The notes beneath the pieces are model-generated. The model saw nothing but the letters and a program-made list of their open reading frames with translations, made no database searches and was not told the origin of the DNA. A stretch of DNA of 64,000 nucleotides from Bacteroidota bacterium (lineage in GTDB: Bacteria > Bacteroidota > Bacteroidia > UKL13-3). Shown here in pieces: positions 11,151 through 51,944 of this stretch (positions within the stretch are counted from its first letter, which is position 1; each line of letters starts with the position of its first letter). The stretch spans positions 33,744 to 97,743 of the forward strand of contig JANYDU010000027.1 of assembly GCA_025359805.1 (NCBI GenBank), in the 5' to 3' direction. A program made the translations under genes and the position numbers.

Positions 11151-11359
11151 AAATAGGTTGGTTTAATTAGCAATATCATTTGAAAAACATTTTCGTTTTT
11201 AATTGTAGGTAAACTTACTTCCAAATGTTATACCGTTTTACACCATACTTAAAACTTAATCAACTGTTAATACCATTTTAATTTTTTGCACATTTTTTAG
11301 TATAAAGATGTGAAAACCTTTCTTGCAATACTCATTCCTTCTTTGCAAATTCGCTCACG

Positions 11360-40118: not shown

Positions 40119-41492
40119 TTACATTCTAAAAAGTATCGCCATAATAATTCTGGTTTCTGCCCTCACTAAATCAGGTTTCCAATTTGGGTCTAAAAGTACA
40201 TTTGTATATCCTGTTTGAGATGTTACTCCACCAGCTCCTGCAAAGTATGGAACGCTTGATTCTCTGTGAACCAATTCAACCCTAAATGTAATACTTTGAT
40301 TAGGCATCCAATCAAAATTGGTTGAGCAATCCCAACCTTTAAATTGATCACCAGGATTTGCACTAAAAGGAAAAGCGCCTTCTGGTTGAGTAGGATTACT
40401 ATGATTAGGTAATGGGCTTGCTTGCCCTGTTGGATACAATACTAAATACCTTCCAGGATTGGTCATCACACCACCTCCAATTGTCCATGCTAATTTATTT
40501 TTCGCAAACCACACTCTGTTATAAAACATAGCACTGGCAAAATATTGTGCTGGTCCTTGTGAAGCATTTCCATCACTAAAACCATTTACGCCTCCACCTT
40601 TTTCAAAACCAAAATCGCCCGTTAATGAAAATGCCATTTTACTAATTCCTTTCGATTCGGGTTTGTTTAAATAACGTAGCAATACGCTATTGTCTGAATG
40701 AAATCGAACTCTATCGGGCAAACTATCATTATCAGTTCCATAATAATCATTGGTGAGAATTTTAAAATTACTATTTGGCATCCATGTAATATTAGCGCCA
40801 AACCCAGGCATACTATTAAACTTGCCATAACTTTGCCATCCATTAATAATCCACGGTTCAATTTTTAAATGTTTAGTTGGAAAAATTTGAATTCTTATTC
40901 CATTAAAAAACCAAGGTGTATTATCAGATGTAAAGGAAGCTTGATACTCCCAATTCTCTGGTTGGTAATAAGAATTTAAACCGATGTACGACATAAACAT
41001 ACCTGCATCAATATTAATTCCATACCATTTATTAAAATGATAACCGGCATACGCTTCACTTAAATAACGATACACGTTTGCCAATTCATATTGCCCACGA
41101 TAGGGACTTAAATCGTTGCGAGGAACAACAATAGATCGGGTTCCAAACTGTGTCATCACTCTTGCTCTTGCACCATTATAATTAAAATCTCCACCAAAAT
41201 GCAAAGCAGAAAGTTGTACCTCATTGTTACGTGCTAAAGCCGTTGAACCAACCACCGTATTATCATTTGGATTATTACCCGAGTAGGTATAATTTACATC
41301 CAATAAAATACTGGGAGTAAAGTAGGGCATATTTTTAAATACTGACGAATCTCTACGGTCTGAACCATTTTGCCAAGTTACATCAATGCCTTCAAAAGGT
41401 TCGCCTTTTTGTTGTGCAGATGCCACACTCATCATCAATAATTGACAACTAATAATTGATAATACGAGTATTGATTTTGTAAATATTTTCAT
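40119..41492 (-). CDS. Outer-membrane beta-barrel porin of the kind that accompanies kdp loci in Bacteroidota
   Basis: Signal peptide (..SVASAQQ) and a 457-aa sequence rich in alternating aromatic/polar residues typical of barrels. The family call is from memory only. Confidence 0.65.
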   Translation of the reverse strand: MKIFTKSILVLSIISCQLLMMSVASAQQKGEPFEGIDVTWQNGSDRRDSSVFKNMPYFTPSILLDVNYTYSGNNPNDNTVVGSTALARNNEVQLSALHFGGDFNYNGARARVMTQFGTRSIVVPRNDLSPYRGQYELANVYRYLSEAYAGYHFNKWYGINIDAGMFMSYIGLNSYYQPENWEYQASFTSDNTPWFFNGIRIQIFPTKHLKIEPWIINGWQSYGKFNSMPGFGANITWMPNSNFKILTNDYYGTDNDSLPDRVRFHSDNSVLLRYLNKPESKGISKMAFSLTGDFGFEKGGGVNGFSDGNASQGPAQYFASAMFYNRVWFAKNKLAWTIGGGVMTNPGRYLVLYPTGQASPLPNHSNPTQPEGAFPFSANPGDQFKGWDCSTNFDWMPNQSITFRVELVHRESSVPYFAGAGGVTSQTGYTNVLLDPNWKPDLVRAETRIIMAILFRM

Positions 41493-41621
41493 GATGTTTT
41501 AAGATAATTACACGCTAACATTTTTTATTACGCCTAACAATAAATTATTTTTTTTATTGATGAATAATATTTTGCAAATATGGGTATTCATTTATTAATA
41601 AAATATAAAGAGAGTATTGAT

Positions 41622-41640
41622 GGTATAAAGATTTTATAAA
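41622..41640 (-). promoter_or_regulatory. Candidate KdpE box upstream of the porin gene: TTTATA-AAATC-TTTATA-CC
   Basis: Read on the minus strand this is a 6-5-6 direct repeat. It lies 39 nt upstream of CATATTTG, a near -7 box, and 130 nt upstream of the porin ATG. Confidence 0.6.
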
Positions 41641-41669
41641 AAAGAACTGTAAATTTAAATAATACTTAA

Positions 41670-42347
41670 TTAAGAGAAACGATAGCCAACGCCACTTTCG
41701 GTAATGATATGAGTAGGTTGATTGGGATTGTCTTCAATTTTTTTACGAAGTTGAGCTACAAATACTCTTAAATATTGTGTTTCGGATTGATAACTTACTC
41801 CCCAAATTTCTTTTAAAATAAATTGATGAGTTAGCGCTCTACCTTCATTTTTTACAAACAAGCACATCAAATTATATTCGGTTGAAGTGAGTTTAACCAT
41901 TTCATTATTTCGCTTAACGGATCTTGCTGTAAAATCAACTTGAATATTGCCACAAGTAATGATACTGCTTTGTTCATTGTTGTCATTTCTTCTTATAGAT
42001 GAGCGGATGCGAGCGAGCAATTCTGCTGTGCGAAACGGTTTTGTTAAATAATCGGTGGCGCCATTATCTAATGCCAATACAATATCAGTTTCACTGTTTA
42101 TAACAGATAGTATGATGATAGCTTTGTGATACCAAGTGCGCAGCTCTTTTAAAATTTCATGTCCACTTTTATCAGGCAAACCAATATCTAATAAGATTAA
42201 TTCGGGTGGATGATTTGCAGCCATTATCACACCTTCCTTTCCGGTTGATGCTTGCCAAACTTTATAGTCGTTACTTTCTAAAGTTATTTCAAGTAGCTTA
42301 CGAATTTGTGGTTCGTCATCTATAACTAATATTTCTGCTTTAATCAT
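41670..42347 (-). CDS. kdpE: OmpR-family response regulator, KdpE-like
   Basis: Receiver domain (VIDDEP..LLDIGLPD..TKPF). The winged-helix C-terminus YLRVFVAQLRKKIEDNPNQPTHIITESGVGYRF closely parallels E. coli KdpE (YLRIYMGHLRQKLEQDPARPRHFITETGIGYRF, from memory). Confidence 0.88.
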   Translation of the reverse strand: MIKAEILVIDDEPQIRKLLEITLESNDYKVWQASTGKEGVIMAANHPPELILLDIGLPDKSGHEILKELRTWYHKAIIILSVINSETDIVLALDNGATDYLTKPFRTAELLARIRSSIRRNDNNEQSSIITCGNIQVDFTARSVKRNNEMVKLTSTEYNLMCLFVKNEGRALTHQFILKEIWGVSYQSETQYLRVFVAQLRKKIEDNPNQPTHIITESGVGYRFS

Positions 42348-43422
42348 TTTTTAGGTTGTTTAAAAATGATGTTTCAGAAGGAATTGTAATAGTAAATTTC
42401 GCACCGCCTTCGTTATTGTTTTCCAGTTTTATATTTCCATGATGAGCTTCCACAAAACCTTTTACAATGGATAGTCCCAAGCCCGTTCCACCAGTTTTGG
42501 AATGAGGTAAACGATAAAATTTATCAAATGCAAATTGAATTTCGGAAAGCGGAAAACCCTGTCCATTATCAGAAATAATGATTACGCAATGATTGGATTG
42601 AAATGAAGTTTGAATAGTAATAATTGAATCTTCGAGAGTATATTGAATGGCATTATGAATGATATTATGCAATACTTGTTCCATCAAACCAGCATCCAAA
42701 TTAAATAGAGGAAGACTTTCATTTGCATCAAAAATAATTTTATGATGAGTGTTTTCTGAAGTAAGTTTTTGAATAACAGAAAAGATGAGCTCATTTATAT
42801 CGCACCAATCTAAATGCAATTTTAACATGCTAGTTTCAAGCCTACTCATGTTTAAAAGATTTTCAACTTGTCTGTTCAATCTTATACTTGCCTTGTCAAT
42901 TTCGATTAGTAATTCGGTTTGATTATTTGCCGAAAGTTTTTCTTTATTTTCTTTCAATGTATCTACAGCTCCAATGATTGTTGAAATAGGTGTTCTCAAC
43001 TCGTGCGAAAGAGAATTGAGCAACGTATTATAAAGTTTGATTGTGCTTTCCTTTTCTTCTTTATCTCTCGCTTTTTTTTCGGCTTCACGAATTTTAAAAG
43101 TAAGTACAACATTTACCAATGCAATAATAAAATACATAAAAAACATGAGTAAATCTTCGGTATTATCAATTTGAAAAGTATAAATAGGAGGGATGAAAAA
43201 AAAATTCCAAATTAATGCGCTTAGTACTGCCACAAATAATACAGGCAACATGTCAAATAACATGGCCACTAGTGAAACTGCTACCAAAAGTAGAAGTGCT
43301 ATAATTTTATACCCGATTAAATGAACCGAGAAGAAACAAGCAATTGCAACGGCAATAATCAAAATTATGCTTGTAATAAATTGAGTGATTAAACTATATT
43401 TTCTTGTATTAAAAAGAACCAA
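42340..43422 (-). CDS. Sensor histidine kinase corresponding to the C-terminal half of KdpD (DUF4118 membrane domain, HisKA, HATPase). The N-terminal Kdp sensor/Usp domains are absent.
   Basis: Four hydrophobic helices, an H-box SHELRTPISTIIG and a G-box TGGTGLGLSIV. Overlaps the RR gene by 8 nt. The start is putative (TTG). Confidence 0.85.
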   Translation of the reverse strand: MVLFNTRKYSLITQFITSIILIIAVAIACFFSVHLIGYKIIALLLLVAVSLVAMLFDMLPVLFVAVLSALIWNFFFIPPIYTFQIDNTEDLLMFFMYFIIALVNVVLTFKIREAEKKARDKEEKESTIKLYNTLLNSLSHELRTPISTIIGAVDTLKENKEKLSANNQTELLIEIDKASIRLNRQVENLLNMSRLETSMLKLHLDWCDINELIFSVIQKLTSENTHHKIIFDANESLPLFNLDAGLMEQVLHNIIHNAIQYTLEDSIITIQTSFQSNHCVIIISDNGQGFPLSEIQFAFDKFYRLPHSKTGGTGLGLSIVKGFVEAHHGNIKLENNNEGGAKFTITIPSETSFLNNLKND

Positions 43423-44876: not shown

Positions 44877-44904
44877 ATTAACCACTTATTAAAATGCTAT
44901 TAAA
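44877..44904 (+). promoter_or_regulatory. Three 11-bp-phased direct repeats ATTAAC-cactt-ATTAAA-atgct-ATTAAA upstream of dabA (candidate OmpR-family operator)
   Basis: The phasing is exact. The last 17 nt are identical to 49452-49468. The array ends 38 nt before the TACATTTG -7 box. Confidence 0.65.
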
Positions 44905-44942
44905 AACTCTGACTGCATTAGGTTTGCAGAAATTTTAGAAGA

Positions 44943-44950
44943 TACATTTG
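44943..44950 (+). promoter_or_regulatory. -7 promoter box TACATTTG for dabAB, with a TTTG -33-like element at 44923-44926
   Basis: Exact TAnnTTTG match 28 nt upstream of the dabA ATG (44978). Confidence 0.6.
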
Positions 44951-44977: not shown

Positions 44978-47473
44978 ATGAAAGCACATCCATCTTCTTT
45001 CGATGAACATGAAGTAATTCATGATTTAAAACACTACTTACCCGCACAAGCTCCACTAAAAGATTTTATCCATCACAATACTTTACACGCTTTTCAAAAT
45101 CAAAAATTTTATGAAGGAACCAGAAACGCCTCTGAAATATTTGGCTATAAAGTTTCTCTTTCTCTTTTTGAATACAGAGAATTATTTCATCAACATAAAA
45201 TCAGAAAAGATATTCTTGAAAAAATAATTACGGATAGAAAAGGCATTGAAAACAGCAAAGTTTGGCACGATAAATTATTAGTTAATGATTATCATCATCC
45301 TGATTTACCAAGAATAGGAGCGCTTCGGGCAAATTGGAAAAAACAATATAAAATTGATTTGGATTCACTTGTTCATCCCATACTTTTTAGGTTGTTGTGC
45401 AGCTATCTTGATCAAGGAATTGCTATTTGGAATTTTCCTGTTTCACACAAAGGCTTTATTACTTCTTTAAGAGAAATGGAAAGCAATAGTTTTACCAGTT
45501 TTTTTAGAACAAAAAGAGCTAAGGATTTATTGCTAAACCACGATACAAAAATTGAACACTTGTTAAAATTTTTAGTGGGTGACGAATCTCTTTATAAACA
45601 ATATCTTTTTGATCAACAGTTTGCGCACCAAGGTTGGTCGGGTATGGTATCGGCTGTTGAGGATCAACCACAAACATTATTAGACCATAAAAAAATCACA
45701 CTTCATGAACTCATCTTTTTTGAAACTTTATTAGAAATTGATTCACTCGATTTTCAGTTTGGAGAAATTTGGGCGCCATTAAGTGCTAAGCTTTCTGAAA
45801 GACCTGTTGGGCTTTTTGCACCAACTACAGAAACCGAATTAATTGAAGTGCTTGAAATTTGGCAAGATGCTTTTGAGTGGAGTTTTTATGATGAAGTACT
45901 TGCGGGAATTGAATTAGAAAAAATCACTACAAAAAGAAATACCGAATCCAGTTTTCAATCGCTATTTTGTATTGATGATAGAGAATGTTCGTTCAGGAGG
46001 TATTTAGAAGAATTTGATCCATCATGTGAAACTTTTGGAACCCCAGGATTTTTTGGTGTGGAGTTTTTTTATCAACCAGAATTTGGGAAATTTTACACAA
46101 AAGTTTGTCCTGCTCCAGTTACTCCCAAATATTTAATTAAAGAAATTGGAACTACTGAAAAAAGAGAAACGGATGTGTATTTTTCAAAACATTCCCACTC
46201 TTTTCATAGCGGTTGGATTATTTCACAAACACTTGGTTTTTGGTCTGCTTTCCGATTATTCCTAAACATTTTCAGACCCTCAACAAGTCCTGCAACTGCA
46301 TCATCATTTAAACACATGGATAGGTTTTCAAAACTTACTATTGAAAACAAAAATATTGCTGATGTAGAAAATGATTTACAAATTGGTTTTACCATTGATG
46401 AAATGGTAACTCGTGTAGAAGGCGTTTTAAAAAGCATTGGGTTGATTGAAAATTTTGCGTCAATCATTTATGTAGTTGGGCATGGTTCAAGTAGTGTAAA
46501 TAATCCACACTATGCTGCGTATGATTGTGGTGCTTGTTCGGGCAGGGCAGGTTCCGTTAATTCAAGAGTGTTTTCAAATATGGCTAATCATCTAAAAGTG
46601 AGAGAAGTATTAGCAACAAAAGGAATTCATATTCCTGATGAAACACAATTTGTGGGAGCACTTCACGATACAACAAGAGATGAAATTGCATTTTATGATG
46701 AGCACTCTTTATCGCCCAAAAATGTATTGGCTCATAAAAAAAATATAGCTACATTTTACACAGTTTTGAATCATAATTCAAAAGAAAGGTCAAGAAGATT
46801 TGAATCCATCAACACCAAACTTAGTGCTGAAAAAATTCATGAAAAAATTCTTCGCAGATCGGTTTCATTATTTGAACCACGCCCAGAGTTAAATCATGCG
46901 ACAAACGCATTATGTATTGTAGGGAGAAGAAATCTTACTAAGCATTTATTTTTAGATAGACGTGCCTTTTTAAATTCATATGATTACGAAATTGATCCTG
47001 AAGGAAAGATTCTTTTAAATATTATGAAGCCACTAGGACCCGTTTGTGGAGGGATTAACTTAGAGTATTATTTTTCAAGAGTGGATAATCAAAAATTGGG
47101 AGCGGGTACAAAACTTCCACATAATGTGATGGGGCTATTTGGCGTTGCCAATGGAATTGATGGTGATTTACGTCCTGGTCTTCCGAGCCAAATGATTGAA
47201 GTGCATGACCCAATTCGTTTGATGATTATTGTTGAACATTTTCCCGAAGTGGTTTTAAAAACTATAAAAACTTTACCCGAAGTGTATGAATGGTATATTA
47301 ATGAATGGATTCATTTGATTGCTGTAAATCCTGAAACAAAAAAACTTTTTGAGTTTAAAAATGGAGATTTTGTTTCATACATTCCAATTAAAAAACAGAT
47401 TGATACCACATCAAATGTTGAAACTTTAACAGAATCATCTCCAGAAAATATTTCGGTTCACTTAATTAAATAA
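44978..47473 (+). CDS. dabA: DabA (DUF2309), the beta-carbonic-anhydrase-like subunit of the DAB inorganic-carbon pump
   Basis: Contains a C-x-D motif (FCIDDRECSF). Also contains His and Cys 15 residues apart (VVGHGSSSVNNPHYAAYDCGACSG). This matches the Zn-ligand pattern C351/D353/H524/C539 reported for H. neapolitanus DabA (from memory). Confidence 0.9.
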   Translation: MKAHPSSFDEHEVIHDLKHYLPAQAPLKDFIHHNTLHAFQNQKFYEGTRNASEIFGYKVSLSLFEYRELFHQHKIRKDILEKIITDRKGIENSKVWHDKLLVNDYHHPDLPRIGALRANWKKQYKIDLDSLVHPILFRLLCSYLDQGIAIWNFPVSHKGFITSLREMESNSFTSFFRTKRAKDLLLNHDTKIEHLLKFLVGDESLYKQYLFDQQFAHQGWSGMVSAVEDQPQTLLDHKKITLHELIFFETLLEIDSLDFQFGEIWAPLSAKLSERPVGLFAPTTETELIEVLEIWQDAFEWSFYDEVLAGIELEKITTKRNTESSFQSLFCIDDRECSFRRYLEEFDPSCETFGTPGFFGVEFFYQPEFGKFYTKVCPAPVTPKYLIKEIGTTEKRETDVYFSKHSHSFHSGWIISQTLGFWSAFRLFLNIFRPSTSPATASSFKHMDRFSKLTIENKNIADVENDLQIGFTIDEMVTRVEGVLKSIGLIENFASIIYVVGHGSSSVNNPHYAAYDCGACSGRAGSVNSRVFSNMANHLKVREVLATKGIHIPDETQFVGALHDTTRDEIAFYDEHSLSPKNVLAHKKNIATFYTVLNHNSKERSRRFESINTKLSAEKIHEKILRRSVSLFEPRPELNHATNALCIVGRRNLTKHLFLDRRAFLNSYDYEIDPEGKILLNIMKPLGPVCGGINLEYYFSRVDNQKLGAGTKLPHNVMGLFGVANGIDGDLRPGLPSQMIEVHDPIRLMIIVEHFPEVVLKTIKTLPEVYEWYINEWIHLIAVNPETKKLFEFKNGDFVSYIPIKKQIDTTSNVETLTESSPENISVHLIK

Positions 47474-47478
47474 ACAGC

Positions 47479-49347
47479 ATGATATCGTTAATCCCACTTT
47501 TTATATTTATTCCACTTTTAGGATTTATTATTAGTTTACTTATTCCCGGTAAAAAAGAAAATTTGCTGTCTATGGCAGCATTTGTTAGTGTTGGGGCGCA
47601 TTTTATTTTATTTATTATTTTTCTGTTTTATTGGTTTTTAAATGGGAGAGTGGCACTCAACTTAAAAGAAATAGTCATTTATCAAACATCCAATTATGAA
47701 TTTTATCTCGACTTTTATTTTGATAAAATAACTGCCGTTTATCTTTTTGTGGGTTCATTTCTCACATTTTTAGTAACCATTTATAGCCGTGCTTATCTTC
47801 ATCGCGAAAAGGGATACAAACGTTTTTTTAATACTATTCTATTCTTTTATTTGGGATATACCATCACCATTATATCAGGAAATTTTGAAACGCTTTTTAT
47901 CGGTTGGGAGATTTTGGGTATCTCTTCTTTTTTATTAATCGCTTTTTATCGAGACAGATATTTACCTGTAAAAAATGCAGTAAAAGTTTTTTCAATTTAT
48001 AGAATTAGTGATATAGGTTTAATACTTGCCATGTGGGCAACACATCATTTATGGCACGAAAATATTACGTTTTTAAAACTTAGTAATTATGAATTAGCTC
48101 ACGAGCATCTTCAAAATCATACTTGGATTGGCATCTTTATTTCTCTGATGATTTTACTAACAGCTGCCGCTAAATCGGCACAACTTCCATTCTCATCATG
48201 GTTACCTAGAGCGATGGAAGGACCAACTCCATCAAGCGCCATTTTTTACGGTTCACTTTCTGTACATCTTGGCGTTTTTTTGTTGCTCAGAACTTTTCCT
48301 TTTTGGGAATATCAATTATCGGTTCGGATTTTTATTTCACTTTTAGGTTTATTTACAGCCATTGTTGCAAGTGGAATTGCAAGAGTTCAATCTTCCGTTA
48401 AAAGTCAGATTGCTTATGCTTCCATTGCTCAAATCGGACTTATATTTATTGAAGTGGCGGCTGGTTTTGAAAACCTTGCCCTATTTCATTTTGCCGGAAA
48501 CGCTTTCTTAAGAACTTATCAATTATTAGTTTCTCCTTCGGTTGTGAGTTATTTAATTAGAGAACAATTTTATAACTTTTCGCCACGTGCGCACACTATT
48601 GAAGATTCGTTTCCAAAAAGATTAGAATACTCGTTTTATATTTTGTGCCTAAAGGAATTTAACCTGGATTCATTTATGTATCGTTTCTTTTGGAATCCTT
48701 TTAAACGAGCCGGAAAAAGGTTAGATTTTTTAACGGTGAAACGTGCATTTATTTTCTTTGTTCCTGCATATTTGGTAGGCTTAGTGTTTGTTTTTAATGA
48801 AGCCTATATTCCAGAAAATCTTCATGAATATTTACCTGTATTTTTTGCTTTAATTGGTTTGGTGATGGTGCTCAAATCATTTACGGAAAGAAAAAATGTG
48901 CAGATGAGTTGGTTGCTACTTATTATGAATCATTTTTGGATTGCATTAGCTATTTCGTTTAATGAGCATTTTAATTATAGCCAAAATGTACTTTATTTAA
49001 GTGGAATTGTTGTGTGTGGAATGCTTGGTTATTTATGTCTTCGCAGGTTAAAAATTTTTGAAACCAATATTGATTTGGATCAGTTTCATGGGCACTCACA
49101 CAAACACCCCAAAATTGCATTTGTATTTTTACTATCGTGTTTGGGATTAACTGGTTTTCCTATTACTCCAACGTTTTTGGGAGAAGATTTAATTTTTAGT
49201 CATATTCATGAAAATCAATCTATGCTTGCCCTTTTTGTATCGTTAAGTTTTATCATTGATGGTATTTCTGTAATCAGAATTTATGCCCGAGTTTTTTTGG
49301 GGCCGCATGTAAAATCAGTTTATGATATGGCTTATCGTTCATCATAA
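47479..49347 (+). CDS. dabB: DabB, NuoL/MrpA-like proton-conducting membrane subunit of the DAB pump
   Basis: Multi-pass Proton_antipo_M-type sequence (GWEILGISSFLLIAF, AAAKSAQLPFSSWLPRAMEGPTPSSA). Starts 5 nt after dabA. Confidence 0.88.
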   Translation: MISLIPLFIFIPLLGFIISLLIPGKKENLLSMAAFVSVGAHFILFIIFLFYWFLNGRVALNLKEIVIYQTSNYEFYLDFYFDKITAVYLFVGSFLTFLVTIYSRAYLHREKGYKRFFNTILFFYLGYTITIISGNFETLFIGWEILGISSFLLIAFYRDRYLPVKNAVKVFSIYRISDIGLILAMWATHHLWHENITFLKLSNYELAHEHLQNHTWIGIFISLMILLTAAAKSAQLPFSSWLPRAMEGPTPSSAIFYGSLSVHLGVFLLLRTFPFWEYQLSVRIFISLLGLFTAIVASGIARVQSSVKSQIAYASIAQIGLIFIEVAAGFENLALFHFAGNAFLRTYQLLVSPSVVSYLIREQFYNFSPRAHTIEDSFPKRLEYSFYILCLKEFNLDSFMYRFFWNPFKRAGKRLDFLTVKRAFIFFVPAYLVGLVFVFNEAYIPENLHEYLPVFFALIGLVMVLKSFTERKNVQMSWLLLIMNHFWIALAISFNEHFNYSQNVLYLSGIVVCGMLGYLCLRRLKIFETNIDLDQFHGHSHKHPKIAFVFLLSCLGLTGFPITPTFLGEDLIFSHIHENQSMLALFVSLSFIIDGISVIRIYARVFLGPHVKSVYDMAYRSS

Positions 49348-49440
49348 ACCATTCAAAATATTCTCACACTAATTTCGCTATTTTTTATCAAACTTAATCT
49401 GTGAAATCTGTGGGTAAGTAATATTCGTTTTATATCAACA

Positions 49441-49468
49441 ATTAAACAAAAATTAAAATGCTATTAAA
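49441..49468 (+). promoter_or_regulatory. Three 11-bp-phased direct repeats ATTAAA-caaaa-ATTAAA-atgct-ATTAAA upstream of the SulP gene
   Basis: Same architecture as 44877-44904. The array ends 37 nt before the TACATTTG -7 box. Confidence 0.65.
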
Positions 49469-49505
49469 TAAGTAATGATGATAGCACAGAACTTTATTAA
49501 GGCAA

Positions 49506-49513
49506 TACATTTG
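49506..49513 (+). promoter_or_regulatory. -7 promoter box TACATTTG for the SulP gene
   Basis: Exact TAnnTTTG match 45 nt upstream of the ATG at 49558. Confidence 0.6.
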
Positions 49514-49557
49514 TTCTTCGAAAAAATAAAAATCATTATAAAATAATATAAAAAATT

Positions 49558-51210
49558 ATGACACAAAATAAAGTAAAACTAGAAATTCCTAAAGATTATA
49601 TCCCAGGTTTAAAACAAAACTGGAAGAATGATTTGCTATCAGGTTTTATTATTTCGCTTATCGCATTGCCACTTTGTTTGGGAATTGCAATGGCTTCAGG
49701 CGTTCCACCAATGGCAGGTATTATAGCAGGTATTATTGGCGGTATTGTATTGTCGCTCACAAGTGGTTCATACGTTACCATAAATGGTCCTGCAGCAGGT
49801 TTAGCCATCATTGTTTTAATGTCGATGGAAGGATTTAAAAAAATGGCACCAGCAGGATTATCTCCTGAACAAGTTGATATGTTTGCCTACCAATGTACAC
49901 TTGCAGTTGGTGTTGGTTGTGGTGTTCTTCAATTATTATTTGGATTGGTTAAAGCTGGAGTTTTAAGCAATTTTTTTCCATCTTCTGTAGTGCATGGAAT
50001 GTTAGCAGCTATTGGAATCATGATTTTTTCAAAACAAATTCATACTGCTTTAGGAGTAAAACCTCAAGGCAAAGAAATGTTAGAAATTATTGGTGAAATT
50101 CCACACAGCATTCTAAACATGAACCCTGATGTAGTAATTATTTCATTAGTGAGTTTGGCTATATTAATTGGATTGCCAATGATAAAAAATAAATATGTAA
50201 AAATGCTTCCAGCTCCACTCATTGTTGTTTTAATTGCTATTCCACTTGGTCATTATTTTGATTTAGAGCATGAACATACTTATTTGTTTTTAGATACTCA
50301 CCAATATACACTTGGTCCAAAATTTTTGGTAAGTCTTCCTGCAAATGTTTTAGATGGAATTATTTTCCCGCGCTTTGATATGTTGTTTACGGGTTTCGGA
50401 ATTCAAATGGTTATTACTTATGCTTTAGTTGCCAGTTTAGAATCATTACTTACTGCCGCAGCAATTGATAAATTAGACCCTTACAAACGTGAATCTAATT
50501 TTAACCGCGAATTATTTGCAAAAGGTTCGGGTAATATTTTATCGAGTATGATTGGTGGATTGCCAATGATTGCCGAAGTGGTTCGTAGTTCTGCCAATTT
50601 AAATAATGGCGCAAAAACACGTTGGAGTAACTTCTTCCATGGAATGTTTTTGTTAATTTTTGTTGTGTTTTTAGGAACAATGATTCATCAAATACCCTTG
50701 GCTGCACTTGCCGCTATGCTTATGGTTACAGGTTATAGATTAGCTTCACCTAAAGAATTTTTAAAAACATACCATATTGGAAAAGAGCAATTGTTTATTT
50801 TTGTTTCTACCATTATTGTAACTATTGCTACCGATTTGTTATACGGAATTGCTGCTGGTATTTTAATTAAATTTATTATCCATACCATTAACGGAGTACC
50901 TCTTAAAAGTTTATTTAAACCTTTTTTAACTATTAATGAAATTGATGATACACATTATGAAATTGATGTAAATCATTCAGCTATTTTTAGTAACTATATT
51001 GGCTTAAGAAAGCAAATAGATGCGTTACCAAAAGGTAAAAATATTGTTGTTGATTTTACTAATGCAAAATTAGTAGATCATACTGTAATGGAAAATATGC
51101 ACGAGATGGCTCATAAGTATGAAGACAATGGCGGGTCGTTTAAATTAATTGGATTTGAATCACATAAACCTTTATCAGCGCATCCTCACGCATCACGTAA
51201 AAAAGTGTGA
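49558..51210 (+). CDS. SulP-family anion transporter with C-terminal STAS domain (BicA-type bicarbonate transporter candidate)
   Basis: 550 aa with a multi-pass SulP core (SGFIISLIALPLCLGIAMASGVPP) and a STAS-like tail (IVVDFTNAKLVDHTVMENM). Confidence 0.88.
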   Translation: MTQNKVKLEIPKDYIPGLKQNWKNDLLSGFIISLIALPLCLGIAMASGVPPMAGIIAGIIGGIVLSLTSGSYVTINGPAAGLAIIVLMSMEGFKKMAPAGLSPEQVDMFAYQCTLAVGVGCGVLQLLFGLVKAGVLSNFFPSSVVHGMLAAIGIMIFSKQIHTALGVKPQGKEMLEIIGEIPHSILNMNPDVVIISLVSLAILIGLPMIKNKYVKMLPAPLIVVLIAIPLGHYFDLEHEHTYLFLDTHQYTLGPKFLVSLPANVLDGIIFPRFDMLFTGFGIQMVITYALVASLESLLTAAAIDKLDPYKRESNFNRELFAKGSGNILSSMIGGLPMIAEVVRSSANLNNGAKTRWSNFFHGMFLLIFVVFLGTMIHQIPLAALAAMLMVTGYRLASPKEFLKTYHIGKEQLFIFVSTIIVTIATDLLYGIAAGILIKFIIHTINGVPLKSLFKPFLTINEIDDTHYEIDVNHSAIFSNYIGLRKQIDALPKGKNIVVDFTNAKLVDHTVMENMHEMAHKYEDNGGSFKLIGFESHKPLSAHPHASRKKV

Positions 51211-51266: not shown

Positions 51267-51944
51267 ATGAAAATATTAGTTATTGAAGACGAACCTAAAG
51301 TAGCTTCTTTTATTAAACAAGGATTAGAAGAACAATCCAATGATGTAACAGTTGCATTTGATGGGTTTTTTGGAAAAAAATTAGCCACTGAAAATCATTA
51401 TGATGTGATTATTATGGATTTGATGATTCCATATATTAATGGTTTAGAGCTATGCAAAACACTTAGAGCCGAAGGAATAAAAACTCCAGTATTAATGCTT
51501 ACGGCACTTGGAACAACAGATGATAAAGTAACAGGGCTTGATGCAGGGGCTGATGATTATTTAGTAAAACCTTTTGAGTTTAAAGAATTGCTGGCTCGTT
51601 TGCGTGCACTCACAAAAAGATATACCGATAATGTACATGAAATAAAAGTACTTGGCATTGCAGATTTGGAAATGAATTTAGATGAAAAAAGTGTACGCAG
51701 ATCGGGGAAACAAATTGAACTTACCGCAAAAGAATTTGGCTTGCTTGAATATTTTTTGAAGAACAAAAATCGTGTTGTTTCCAGAACTGAAATTGCTGAA
51801 AAAGTTTGGGATATACATTTTGATACTGGTACTAACGTTATTGACGTGTATATTAATTTTCTTCGCAAAAAAATTGATAAAGAGTTTACACCAAAACTTA
51901 TTCATACTATGGTGGGCATGGGTTATGTAATGAAAGTAGAGTAG
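51267..51944 (+). CDS. OmpR/PhoB-family response regulator with no adjacent histidine kinase
   Basis: Receiver domain (VIEDEP..IMDLMIP..VKPF) and winged helix (LTAKEFGLLEYFL..IHTMVGMGYV). The next gene is convergent (coaE). Confidence 0.9.
   Translation: MKILVIEDEPKVASFIKQGLEEQSNDVTVAFDGFFGKKLATENHYDVIIMDLMIPYINGLELCKTLRAEGIKTPVLMLTALGTTDDKVTGLDAGADDYLVKPFEFKELLARLRALTKRYTDNVHEIKVLGIADLEMNLDEKSVRRSGKQIELTAKEFGLLEYFLKNKNRVVSRTEIAEKVWDIHFDTGTNVIDVYINFLRKKIDKEFTPKLIHTMVGMGYVMKVE

What the first reader, a model, noticed from the sequence alone, without database searches (positions are those of the whole stretch)
44978..51210. Inorganic-carbon uptake island: dabA-dabB (DAB pump) directly followed by a SulP/STAS (BicA-type) transporter
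DabA shows the beta-carbonic-anhydrase-like ligand pattern (CIDDRE; GHG..15 residues..C in DCGAC). DabB is the NuoL-like proton-conducting partner. The genes are 5 nt apart. A SulP transporter with a STAS domain, the family containing the cyanobacterial bicarbonate transporter BicA, follows under its own promoter. No carbonic anhydrase, RuBisCO or carboxysome gene is present in the window. DAB systems are described (Desmarais et al. 2019; MpsAB in S. aureus). A paired DAB plus SulP module with a shared operator in a T9SS-bearing Bacteroidota genome has, to my knowledge, not been characterised. It would imply regulated bicarbonate supply for anaplerotic or biosynthetic carboxylations.
Basis: partly seen in the sequence, partly recalled or inferred. 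Interest (0 to 1): 0.6.

Follow-up and report, generated by a model that had tools for sequence, protein, structure and literature searches.

The report
Divergent CO2 pump, SulP transporter, shared switch
A non-photosynthetic Bacteroidota bacterium carries an unstudied variant of the DabAB CO2-trapping pump next to a SulP anion transporter. Both genes sit behind the same repeated DNA box, which probably binds the regulator encoded next door, so this looks like a regulated bicarbonate-handling unit whose chemistry is untested.

Summary
dabA (44978-47473), dabB (47479-49347, 5-nt gap) and a SulP/SLC26 gene (49558-51210) are all present, and DabA keeps the zinc ligands (C331, D333, R335, H502, C517).

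- The DabAB pair belongs to a large untested "His-type" branch. DabA has His640 where characterised DAB1/DAB2 have a conserved Leu. DabB has Tyr, Asn and Arg where H260, H343 and K347 of H. neapolitanus DabB2 are needed for activity.
- The SulP protein is not BicA-like by sequence. It belongs to a Bacteroidota clade that flanks dabAB in 42 of 56 surveyed loci and is fused to DabA in some. Its sister clade is fused or adjacent to beta-carbonic anhydrase.
- The "shared operator" is real. Three hexamers at 11-bp phase lie 65-66 nt before identical TACATTTG boxes of both dabA and sulP.
- The same phased TTAA arrays occur before dabA and sulP in Runella limosa. They also occur next to relatives of the adjacent OmpR-type regulator (51267-51944), which therefore probably controls both units.
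- The genome has two beta-CAs and an SbtA-like permease elsewhere, and no RuBisCO.

No function has been tested. I class it as a new variant of a known kind, of moderate interest.

The parts
44877..44904 (+). Operator-like array before dabA: ATTAAC-N5-ATTAAA-N5-ATTAAA, three hexamers (TTAA cores) at exact 11-bp phase
   Evidence: one of only two sites in the genome with at most 1 mismatch; the same phased arrays lie before dabA and sulP in Runella limosa (L055).
44943..44950 (+). TACATTTG, a match to the Bacteroidota -7 promoter consensus TAnnTTTG. A second match, TAGGTTTG, lies at 44919-44926.
   Evidence: Read from the sequence and by position scan. The consensus is from my own knowledge of Bacteroidetes sigma-A promoters. 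The transcription start was not measured.
44978..47473 (+). dabA, 831 aa, His-type DabA. Zinc site C331/D333/R335/H502/C517. His640 replaces Leu658 of H. neapolitanus DabA2.
47479..49347 (+). dabB, 622 aa, NuoL-like membrane subunit. It keeps E144, R175, D178, K232, K308 and H337. It has Y257, N341 and R345 where NuoL has H254, H338 and K342 (DabB2 H260, H343, K347).
49441..49468 (+). Second copy of the operator-like array, before sulP: ATTAAA-N5-ATTAAA-N5-ATTAAA
   Evidence: It is identical in a strain whose SulP is 98% identical (L040), while the sequence on either side differs.
49506..49513 (+). TACATTTG -7-type box of sulP, 65 nt after the start of the array
49558..51210 (+). SulP/SLC26 anion transporter with a short, divergent STAS domain (clade I of the DAB-linked Bacteroidota SulPs)
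51267..51944 (+). Orphan OmpR-family response regulator, the candidate binder of the arrays. Its likely partner kinase is an orphan gene on another contig (C11:33279-34649).

Best explanation
This is a regulated inorganic-carbon (CO2/bicarbonate) handling module of a heterotrophic Bacteroidota bacterium, made of two transcription units under one regulator.

Unit 1 is dabA-dabB. It encodes a membrane-energised carbonic-anhydrase-like complex that hydrates CO2 diffusing into the cell and releases bicarbonate in the cytoplasm. It belongs to a large His-type branch whose coupling chemistry probably differs from the characterised DAB1/DAB2.

Unit 2 is a SulP/SLC26 transporter that moves bicarbonate across the inner membrane, most likely as import. 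It probably works in physical contact with DabA.

Both units carry, 65-66 nt before a TACATTTG promoter box, three hexamers at 11-bp phase. The OmpR-family response regulator encoded just after sulP probably binds these as a head-to-tail multimer and activates both promoters when phosphorylated by an unlinked HAMP-type kinase.

Shown here: gene identities, intact zinc site, clade-wide substitutions, conserved DAB-SulP linkage and fusion, uniqueness and co-occurrence of the arrays.

Inferred: CO2 hydration activity, bicarbonate as the SulP substrate and its direction of transport, regulator-box binding, the signal sensed, and the metabolic sink. Biotin carboxylases, carbamoyl-phosphate synthetase and PurK are the generic sinks.
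For: Family and catalytic site:
- PF10070 is matched full-length at E 1.5e-215.
- DabA aligns to the solved DabA2 9rd0_A with the C/D/R/H/C site conserved.
- DabB has PF00361/PF00662 and a NuoL-like core.

Linkage of DabAB and SulP:
- SulP is adjacent in 14 of 17 DabAB loci of relatives.
- SulP is adjacent in 42 of 56 named Bacteroidota loci with room on both sides. 16 of those 56 also have a beta-CA.
- A single 1391-aa SulP-DabA fusion ORF occurs in L118. A 1390-aa fusion cluster is seen on several contigs from NCBI, JGI and ENA.

SulP family relations:
- Two SulP clades are linked to DAB. The sister clade of the window's SulP contains the genome's own SulP-beta-CA fusion.
- Those two are the only SulP paralogues found in the genome.

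Regulation:
- The array plus -7 box architecture is duplicated and unique in the genome.
- It is kept identical in a strain whose SulP is 98% identical.
- Exact 3x or longer phased TTAA arrays lie before dabA and sulP in Runella limosa L055, where a regulator 67% identical and a kinase sit directly before dabA.
- Fisher p is 1e-5 for arrays against regulator adjacency, and 0.003 with the window left out.
- Among 80 metagenomic relatives of the regulator, arrays lie just after the kinase gene in 9 of 48 loci, against 0.8% of random windows. One of these is a regulator-kinase-array-SulP locus (L171).

Physiology:
- No RuBisCO was found.
- CA-free E. coli needs a CA or an inorganic-carbon importer in air (PMC13684180, PMC6689103).
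Against: - Nothing here is experimental, and no RNA data exist for this organism.
- H260A, H343A and K347A cripple DAB2 (PMC13144422). The equivalent residues here are Tyr, Asn and Arg in 86-88 of 88 clade members. The clade also keeps the NuoL-type Glu144, and reintroducing that Glu into DAB2 halved growth yield. Energy coupling, or even the direction of the reaction, may therefore differ.
- The SulP scores slightly better against dicarboxylate-type DauA than against BicA, and its best solved match is the fumarate transporter SLC26Dg. One close SulP relative (81% identical, L041) has no dabAB beside it.
- The regulator family is not specific to DAB. Of its 80 closest metagenomic relatives, none lies next to dabA and 2 lie next to SulP.
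- In this AT-rich genome the bare TTAA x3 core occurs as often as in shuffled sequence, 6 against 6.05. The case for the window's own boxes therefore rests on the longer match, the position and the cross-genome recurrence.
- The genome already has two beta-CAs, a SulP-CA fusion and an SbtA-like permease, so the need for this module is unclear.
- PEP carboxylase and pyruvate carboxylase/OadA domains were not detected.
Confidence: 0.6

Rival explanations
1. The module is an acid-base (pH/ion) homeostasis device rather than a carbon supply. DabAB hydrates CO2 in the cytoplasm, giving H+ and HCO3-. The SulP then exports the bicarbonate, driven by membrane potential or anion exchange. The net result acidifies the cytoplasm under alkaline or ionic stress, as CA-SLC26/SLC4 pairs do in animal epithelia.
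For: - In relatives, the regulator family's phased arrays sit before Na+/H+ exchanger genes (PF00999), tandem universal stress proteins, an outer-membrane efflux protein (OEP) and an OmpA-family gene. This points to a stress or ion regulon.
- DabA keeps His at the position where beta-CAs have the Gln/His that bonds bicarbonate.
- DabB has an altered ion path.
- Many loci add a cytoplasmic-type beta-CA, which would short-circuit a pure bicarbonate-accumulating pump.
- No PEPC or pyruvate carboxylase/OadA domain was found.
Against: - The direction of SulP transport is unknown.
- Characterised DAB/MpsAB systems all act as carbon supply: they rescue CA-free E. coli (PMC6689103, PMC13684180).
- A published survey of autotroph genomes found DAB complexes absent at pH optima above 8.3 (PMC10880623).
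- The target genes of the arrays in other genomes are heterogeneous.
Confidence: 0.2
2. The SulP carries an anion unrelated to inorganic carbon, such as sulfate or a C4-dicarboxylate as in DauA and SLC26Dg. Its position beside dabAB then reflects shared regulation or chance synteny, and only dabAB deals with CO2.
For: - HMM scores: generic sulP 176 bits, DauA 167, BicA 116, all below their cut-offs.
- The best solved match is the fumarate transporter SLC26Dg.
- At BicA Asp258 the protein has Glu (LESLLT), as SLC26Dg does.
- A homologue 81% identical lies without dabAB.
Against: - 75% adjacency across several orders, in several gene orders.
- SulP-DabA fusion proteins exist.
- The sister SulP clade is fused or adjacent to beta-CA.
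- The operator is duplicated before both units.
Confidence: 0.1
3. The His-type DabAB is no longer an energy-coupled pump. With three proton-path residues replaced and a canonical His in the active site, it may act as a membrane-anchored ordinary (reversible) carbonic anhydrase that feeds or drains the neighbouring SulP.
For: - Y257, N341 and R345 stand in place of residues whose alanine mutants cripple DAB2 (PMC13144422).
- His640 stands in place of Leu658.
- Uncoupled DabA mutants behave as plain CAs and still rescue CA-free E. coli (PMC13684180).
Against: - DabB is strictly retained next to DabA in every locus. Its K232, K308, H337, E144, R175 and D178 are invariant in 88 of 88 members, which argues for a working ion path.
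- Tyr, Asn and Arg are still polar or charged.
- L658Q in DAB2 did not give CA activity in vitro (PMC13144422).
Confidence: 0.1

Closest known systems
DAB2 (DabA2/DabB2) of Halothiobacillus neapolitanus, PDB 9rd0 (Desmarais et al. 2019; PMC13144422)
   Same: - Two adjacent genes: a DabA with a beta-CA-like zinc site (C, H, C plus an Asp-Arg dyad) and a NuoL-like PF00361 DabB.
- No DabC.
- The NNP...DCGAC loop and the GFFG lid motif are present.
- DabB keeps K235, D185, R182, K310 and H339 equivalents.
   Different: - About 30% identity to DabA2.
- His640 instead of the Leu658 reported as strictly conserved in 150 DabA2 homologues.
- SLFEPRPELNH instead of DWSQVRPEWGL, so the Trp wedge is lost.
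- DabB H260 is Tyr, H343 is Asn and K347 is Arg.
- Glu is kept where DabB2 has Ile151.
- DabB is 622 aa rather than 551 aa.
- The host is a heterotroph, there is no carboxysome context, and the pair is linked to SulP.
DAB1 (DabA/DabB/DabC) of Thermocrinis albus (PMC13684180)
   Same: Same DabA fold family and the same zinc ligands. Motifs corresponding to GI(A/G)GFFG, NNPYESALDCGACGG and DW(XXX)RPEWGL can be recognised.
   Different: No dabC gene is evident. The motifs read GTPGFFG, NNPHYAAYDCGACSG and SLFEPRPELNH. The Leu825 equivalent is His.
MpsAB of Staphylococcus aureus (PMC6689103)
   Same: A DabAB homologue in a non-autotroph, proposed to supply bicarbonate for growth in air. NCBI names a fusion protein of this clade 'Na-translocating system protein MpsB'.
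   Different: I could not obtain the MpsB sequence, so I do not know whether MpsAB is His-type or Leu-type. MpsAB tends to replace CA in genomes, whereas this genome has both. No SulP partner has been described for MpsAB.
BicA, the SulP-type Na+-dependent bicarbonate transporter of cyanobacteria (Price et al. 2004; PDB 6ki1)
   Same: Same SLC26/SulP fold. The model's membrane domain superposes on 6ki1 with TM-score 0.86 normalised to the target.
   Different: - 21% identity.
- The NCBIfam BicA model scores 116 bits against a cut-off of 880.
- Glu instead of BicA Asp258.
- INGPAAG instead of ISEPTGP in TM3.
- A separate, distant clade in the tree.
SulP-carbonic anhydrase fusions (Felce and Saier 2004, cited in PMC10219603)
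   Same: The same logic of tying a SulP transporter to a CO2/bicarbonate-converting enzyme. The genome's other SulP paralogue is such a fusion, and it belongs to the sister clade.
   Different: Here the partner is the DabAB complex rather than a soluble beta-CA. It is usually a neighbour, and in some Saprospiraceae it is fused as SulP-DabA.
OmpR/PhoB-family operators (for example the Pho box, direct repeats with an 11-bp period)
   Same: A winged-helix response regulator next to direct repeats spaced one helical turn apart, upstream of the core promoter.
   Different: The repeat unit is (A/T)TTAA(A/T) in arrays of three to five. The regulator is most similar to the CusR/CopR group (248.8 bits, cut-off 279.2). 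Binding has not been shown.

Membership tests
DAB / DAC / MpsAB family (DabA + DabB) | DabA domain PF10070 over its full length | tested here: met
   E 1.5e-215, profile positions 1-747 of 747
DAB / DAC / MpsAB family (DabA + DabB) | Beta-CA-type zinc site: two Cys, one His, plus an Asp-Arg dyad | tested here: met
   C331, D333, R335, H502 and C517 align to C351/D353/H524/C539 of 9rd0_A. They are invariant in alignment A1.
DAB / DAC / MpsAB family (DabA + DabB) | An adjacent PF00361 (NuoL-like) membrane subunit | tested here: met
   dabB lies 5 nt downstream. PF00361 E 1.2e-39, and 9rd0_B E 1.2e-28.
DAB / DAC / MpsAB family (DabA + DabB) | Rescue of carbonic-anhydrase-free E. coli in air, and uncoupler-sensitive inorganic-carbon accumulation | not testable with these tools
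   Requires experiments.
DAB1/DAB2 subtype as structurally characterised | Hydrophobic Leu (Leu658 in DabA2, Leu825 in DabA1) in place of the beta-CA Gln/His | tested here: not met
   His640 by ungapped alignment. RPE..H occurs in 75 of 82 DabA hits in the 80 named loci and in at least 108 of the best 150 family representatives.
DAB1/DAB2 subtype as structurally characterised | DabB proton-path residues H260, H343 and K347 (NuoL H254, H338, K342) | tested here: not met
   Y257, N341 and R345. Tyr in 88 of 88, Asn in 86 of 88 and Arg in 88 of 88 clade members. A canonical DabB (L022) has H, H, K.
DAB1/DAB2 subtype as structurally characterised | Loss of the NuoL Glu144 (Ile151 in DabB2) | tested here: not met
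   Glu144 is kept in 88 of 88.
SulP / SLC26 transporters | PF00916 membrane domain and the 7+7 inverted-repeat fold | tested here: met
   PF00916 E 5e-62. The AF2 model matches SLC26Dg, prestin, SLC26A11 and BicA at Foldseek probability 1.00.
SulP / SLC26 transporters | C-terminal STAS domain | tested here: met
   The fold is present in the model (strands and helices at 456-549). The full-length alignment to 5da0 covers it. The Pfam STAS profile alone is below its cut-off.
BicA (bicarbonate transporter equivalog) | Score over the NCBIfam NF050096 cut-off; clustering with BicA | tested here: not met
   115.8 bits against a cut-off of 880. It sits on a long separate branch in the tree.
BicA (bicarbonate transporter equivalog) | Bicarbonate transport activity | not testable with these tools
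   Context evidence only.
OmpR-family two-component response regulators | Receiver domain plus winged-helix Trans_reg_C domain | tested here: met
   PF00072 E 5e-28 and PF00486 E 1.3e-25
OmpR-family two-component response regulators | Cognate histidine kinase | tested here: inconclusive
   None is adjacent. One orphan HAMP-type kinase on contig C11 is 42% identical over its full length to the kinases paired with this regulator's relatives beside dabAB.

The most novel reading that the evidence does not exclude
His-type DabAB together with SulP is a third, mechanistically distinct kind of DAB machine. In this reading a SulP-DabA-DabB supercomplex (sometimes a single fused polypeptide) has a conventional, bicarbonate-binding CA site that hands bicarbonate directly to or from the SLC26 transporter. 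A re-wired DabB ion path (Tyr/Asn/Arg, with the NuoL Glu retained) supplies the energy. The whole is switched by a dedicated two-component system through phased TTAA arrays, as part of an ion or pH stress regulon. It would then be a bacterial 'bicarbonate transport metabolon'.
Probability: 0.25. Interest if true: 0.75.

Novelty: new variant of a known kind. Interest (0 to 1): 0.5.

Why it matters
DAB complexes are being studied as minimal CO2-uptake modules for engineering. The 2026 structures built their coupling models on residues said to be strictly conserved.

This locus belongs to a large natural branch: at least 108 of the 150 closest family representatives, spread across Bacteroidota. 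That branch replaces exactly those residues, keeps a canonical CA-type His, and travels with, or is fused to, an SLC26 transporter.

Testing it would show one of two things. Either the published mechanism generalises, or a second coupling solution exists. It would also give the first functional handle on a very common SulP clade of unknown substrate.

The duplicated operator and the neighbouring regulator offer a simple way to find the signal that controls inorganic-carbon handling in abundant environmental heterotrophs. That signal could be CO2, bicarbonate, pH or ions.

Tried and rejected
- The longest ORF start for dabA (TTG at 44948) was rejected, because that TTG is the end of the TACATTTG box. 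The ATG at 44978 aligns with relatives.
- Searching distant relatives for the ATTAAA box before dabA or sulP found nothing conserved. The signal appeared only when exact TTAA phasing was scored and loci with the regulator were examined.
- The bare TTAA x3 core is not enriched in this AT-rich genome, 6 sites against 6.05 in shuffles. It cannot stand alone as evidence here.
- No further regulon members were found in the genome with the 17-mer or the 28-nt pattern.
- The sigma-70 and terminator scan was uninformative for a Bacteroidota promoter type.
- No RNA sequencing runs hold the locus, so transcription starts and co-expression could not be checked.
- I tried to reach Bacillota MpsB-type sequences through the genome behind L101, which is labelled Bacillota. 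That genome's phylum sample consisted of genomes of about 0.7-2 Mb, and only 2 of 121 had DabA. The attempt therefore gave no MpsB comparison.
- NCBIfam has no model that hits DabA.
- Glu444 of DabA2 (finger motif) could not be mapped reliably, because the region is 11 residues shorter here and even a canonical relative has Ser there.
- The idea that the regulator family is specific to DAB was rejected: none of 80 relatives lie next to dabA.

Full report
**What is there.**

The region holds four co-directional genes on the + strand.

- dabA, 44978-47473, 831 aa. PF10070 is matched over the whole profile at E 1.5e-215.
- dabB, 47479-49347, 622 aa. It has PF00662 and PF00361 and starts 5 nt after the dabA stop.
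- A SulP/SLC26 gene, 49558-51210, 550 aa, PF00916 E 5e-62. It follows a 210-nt spacer.
- An OmpR-family response regulator, 51267-51944, which faces a convergent coaE gene.

The longer TTG start listed for dabA (44948) lies inside a TACATTTG promoter-type box, so I use the ATG at 44978. Upstream are yegS-like and SUI1/yciH-like genes that are unrelated to this module. Single contigs span the dabB-sulP junction in two metagenome runs. These runs may be the source samples.

**DabA and DabB: family membership, but a divergent branch.**

DabA aligns to the solved H. neapolitanus DabA2 (9rd0_A, E 1e-58). The zinc site is conserved: FCIDDRE (C331, D333, R335) and GHGSSSVNNPHYAAYDCGAC (H502, C517).

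Two 2026 structure papers define further hallmarks.

- A Leu replaces the Gln/His that stabilises bicarbonate or the transition state in beta-CAs. [quoted passage not shown] It is Leu825 in DabA1, within the DW(XXX)RPEWGL motif (PMC13684180).
- In DabB2, H260, H343 and K347 (NuoL H254, H338, K342) are needed for activity.
- In DabB2, Ile151 replaces NuoL Glu144.

In the window these hallmarks read differently.

- The DabA motif is SLFEPRPELNH. His640 aligns, without gaps, to Leu658, and the Trp wedge is Leu.
- DabB has Y257, N341 and R345, and it keeps E144.

These are not private changes.

- All 16 Bacteroidota-type DabAs from relatives' genomes carry the His.
- Among 82 DabA hits in the 80 named loci, 75 read RPE..H.
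- Among 88 DabBs of the clade, Tyr occurs in 88, Asn in 86, Arg in 88 and Glu144 in 88.
- A canonical DabAB in one relative (L022) has RPEWGL and H/H/K.

A search of 1.84 billion representatives found 3566 family members, 1638 of them at E 1e-30 or better. At least 108 of the 150 closest have His at this position, including forms of 900-1060 aa of unknown origin. The pair is therefore a member of the DAB family at large but not of the characterised DAB1/DAB2 type. I could not establish whether S. aureus MpsAB, the tested heterotroph system, is His-type.

**SulP: not BicA by sequence, but tied to DabAB and to carbonic anhydrase by context.**

- NCBIfam scores are generic sulP 176 bits, DauA 167 and BicA 116, all far below their cut-offs.
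- The best solved matches are the fumarate transporter SLC26Dg and then BicA, at about 21-22% identity.
- The STAS domain is below Pfam's threshold. It is present in a confident AlphaFold2 model (pLDDT 85), which aligns full-length to SLC26 structures.

The functional lead is genomic.

- SulP is adjacent to dabAB in 14 of 17 loci from relatives.
- Among 56 named Bacteroidota loci with room on both sides, 42 (75%) have SulP adjacent. It lies downstream as here in 18 and upstream in 25, one locus having both. 16 of the 56 also carry a beta-CA.
- One locus (L118) encodes a single 1391-aa SulP-DabA protein. A 1390-aa fusion cluster from Saprospiraceae is present on several independent contigs.

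A maximum-likelihood tree separates two Bacteroidota SulP clades linked to DAB. Clade I contains the window's protein. Clade II is mostly arranged sulP-betaCA-dabAB and contains this genome's own SulP-beta-CA fusion. Both clades are far from E. coli DauA and Synechocystis BicA.

The genome has only these two SulP paralogues. A counter-example exists: a SulP 81% identical without dabAB beside it (L041).

**The rest of the genome.**

The 2.47-Mb, 84.5%-complete genome has no RuBisCO. It has two beta-CAs. One is fused to SulP on contig C40. The other has a lipoprotein-like signal and lies next to a PF05982 SbtA-type permease on C14. PEP carboxylase and the pyruvate carboxylase/OadA domain were not found.

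DabA occurs in 18 of 41 genomes searched (this genome and 40 relatives). It occurs in none of three same-genus genomes, which are 69-93% complete.

**The shared operator and its probable regulator.**

Before dabA (44877-44904) and before sulP (49441-49468) lie three hexamers of the ATTAAA type at exact 11-bp phase, with an identical 17-mer ATTAAAATGCTATTAAA. Each array starts 66 or 65 nt before a TACATTTG box, a match to the Bacteroidota -7 consensus. The 28-nt pattern with at most one mismatch, and the 17-mer, are found nowhere else in the genome.

A metagenomic strain whose SulP is 98% identical keeps the stretch from box to -7 identical, while the sequence on both sides differs. Most relatives have only 15-80 nt between dabB and sulP, which suggests one operon. 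This lineage has therefore split the unit and supplied sulP with its own copy of the control region.

The bare TTAA x3 core is no more frequent than chance in this AT-rich genome, 6 sites against 6.05 in shuffles. I therefore looked for independent support, and found four lines.

- The adjacent orphan regulator is 67%, 61% and 48% identical to regulators that sit, together with a HAMP-HisKA kinase, directly beside dabAB in Runella limosa DSM 17973 (L055), L087 and L073. The window's genome has the matching kinase as an orphan on contig C11.
- In L055, arrays of four phased TTAA boxes precede both dabA and sulP. Across 141 dabA and sulP upstream regions, arrays occur in 4 of 7 regions from regulator-adjacent loci and in 1 of 134 others. 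Fisher p is 1e-5, or 0.003 with the window excluded.
- Among 80 metagenomic relatives of the regulator (49-70% identical, mean GC 44%), arrays of three to five boxes lie just after the kinase gene in 9 of 48 loci. Only 0.8% of random windows have one. Arrays also lie before the regulator gene in 3 of 73 loci. One of these loci is regulator-kinase-array-SulP (L171).
- Other genes behind such arrays encode Na+/H+ exchangers, tandem universal stress proteins, an outer-membrane efflux protein (OEP), and OmpA, DUF389 and DUF2231 proteins.

The box is therefore very probably this regulator family's recognition site. However, the family is not dedicated to DAB, since none of the 80 relatives lies next to dabA.

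**Interpretation.**

The best-supported reading (0.6) is a regulated inorganic-carbon handling module. A His-type DabAB hydrates CO2 to cytoplasmic bicarbonate using membrane energy. A partner SulP moves bicarbonate. A two-component regulator activates both from arrays centred roughly 40-65 nt upstream of the -7 box.

Gene identities, residues, linkage, fusion and box statistics are shown. Activity, substrate, direction, binding and signal are inferred.

The main rival (0.2) is an acid-base device in which SulP exports the bicarbonate made by DabAB. The ion and stress genes in the regulator family's apparent regulon, and the CA-like His, point that way. Lesser rivals are a SulP unrelated to carbon (0.1) and a DabAB that has become an uncoupled, membrane-anchored CA (0.1).

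**Novelty.**

DAB/MpsAB homologues in Bacteroidetes were noted in a phylogeny (PMC6689103), and SulP-CA fusions are known. I found no paper describing the DAB-SulP module, the His-type substitutions or the regulator arrays.

Earlier notes of this scan describe the same His-type, SulP-linked branch in at least 15 other genomes. I reached the residue and linkage results before reading them, and I checked the fusion claim myself. What this window adds is the split operon with a duplicated operator and the link to a response-regulator family.

Noticed in passing
G000 contig C40, locus L001:1-2025 (outside the window): The genome's only other SulP paralogue is a SulP-STAS-beta-carbonic-anhydrase fusion: PF00916 plus PF00484 within an open frame of 769 aa. 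It belongs to the SulP clade that usually sits as sulP-betaCA-dabAB in other Bacteroidota.
   Followed up: partly
G000 contig C14, locus L002:479-2253 (outside the window): A beta-carbonic anhydrase with a lipoprotein-like signal (…INGCYSS…) is followed, 41 nt later, by a PF05982 SbtA-type 'Na+-dependent bicarbonate transporter' permease. This is a third candidate inorganic-carbon unit in the genome.
   Followed up: partly
Loci L026, L049, L050, L065, L095; protein P0103: Some clade I SulP proteins next to dabAB are 695-766 aa long. P0103 (743 aa, 60% identical to the window's SulP) carries a C-terminal extension of about 200 aa that matches no Pfam family.
   Followed up: partly
L118:246-4413; protein cluster P0123: Natural SulP-DabA fusion proteins of about 1390 aa occur in Saprospiraceae. 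NCBI names them 'Na-translocating system protein MpsB'.
   Followed up: yes
L164, L157, L148, L144, L135, L188, L195 (metagenome loci with relatives of the regulator): Arrays of three to five TTAA boxes at 11-bp phase mark promoters of Na+/H+ exchanger, tandem Usp, outer-membrane efflux (OEP), OmpA, DUF389 and DUF2231 genes next to regulator-kinase pairs. This looks like a family-wide operator of a CusR/CopR-like Bacteroidota regulator group.
   Followed up: partly
L041:8001-17653: A SulP 81% identical to the window's lies without dabAB. It is followed by a 434-aa protein with no family match, a regulator-kinase pair (regulator 50% identical to the window's) and an RND efflux system.
   Followed up: no
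L065 (Chryseolinea sp.) and L054: Two DabAB pairs lie in one locus. In L065 there are two His-type pairs, convergent, each with its own SulP. In L054 a second, more distant pair (32% identical, RPEYGH) lies divergent to the first.
   Followed up: no
G041 and G051 (genomes of 1.4 and 0.9 Mb reached through L101): His-type DabA (E about 1e-209) occurs in 2 of 121 very small genomes of one phylum, although the public record of L101 is labelled Bacillota. This could be mis-binning or horizontal transfer.
   Followed up: no
window 40119-43422, minus strand: A shortened KdpD-like kinase (DUF4118-HisKA-HATPase), a KdpE-like regulator and a BBP2 porin lie just upstream of the module, with no kdpFABC genes. 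Earlier notes of the scan already cover this.
   Followed up: no
window about 11255-11282: A weaker copy of the box (ATTAAAATGGTATTAAC on the minus strand, with a TTAA x3 phased core) lies between divergent genes for a 638-aa secreted protein and a 351-aa protein. No -7 box was found at the matching distance.
   Followed up: no
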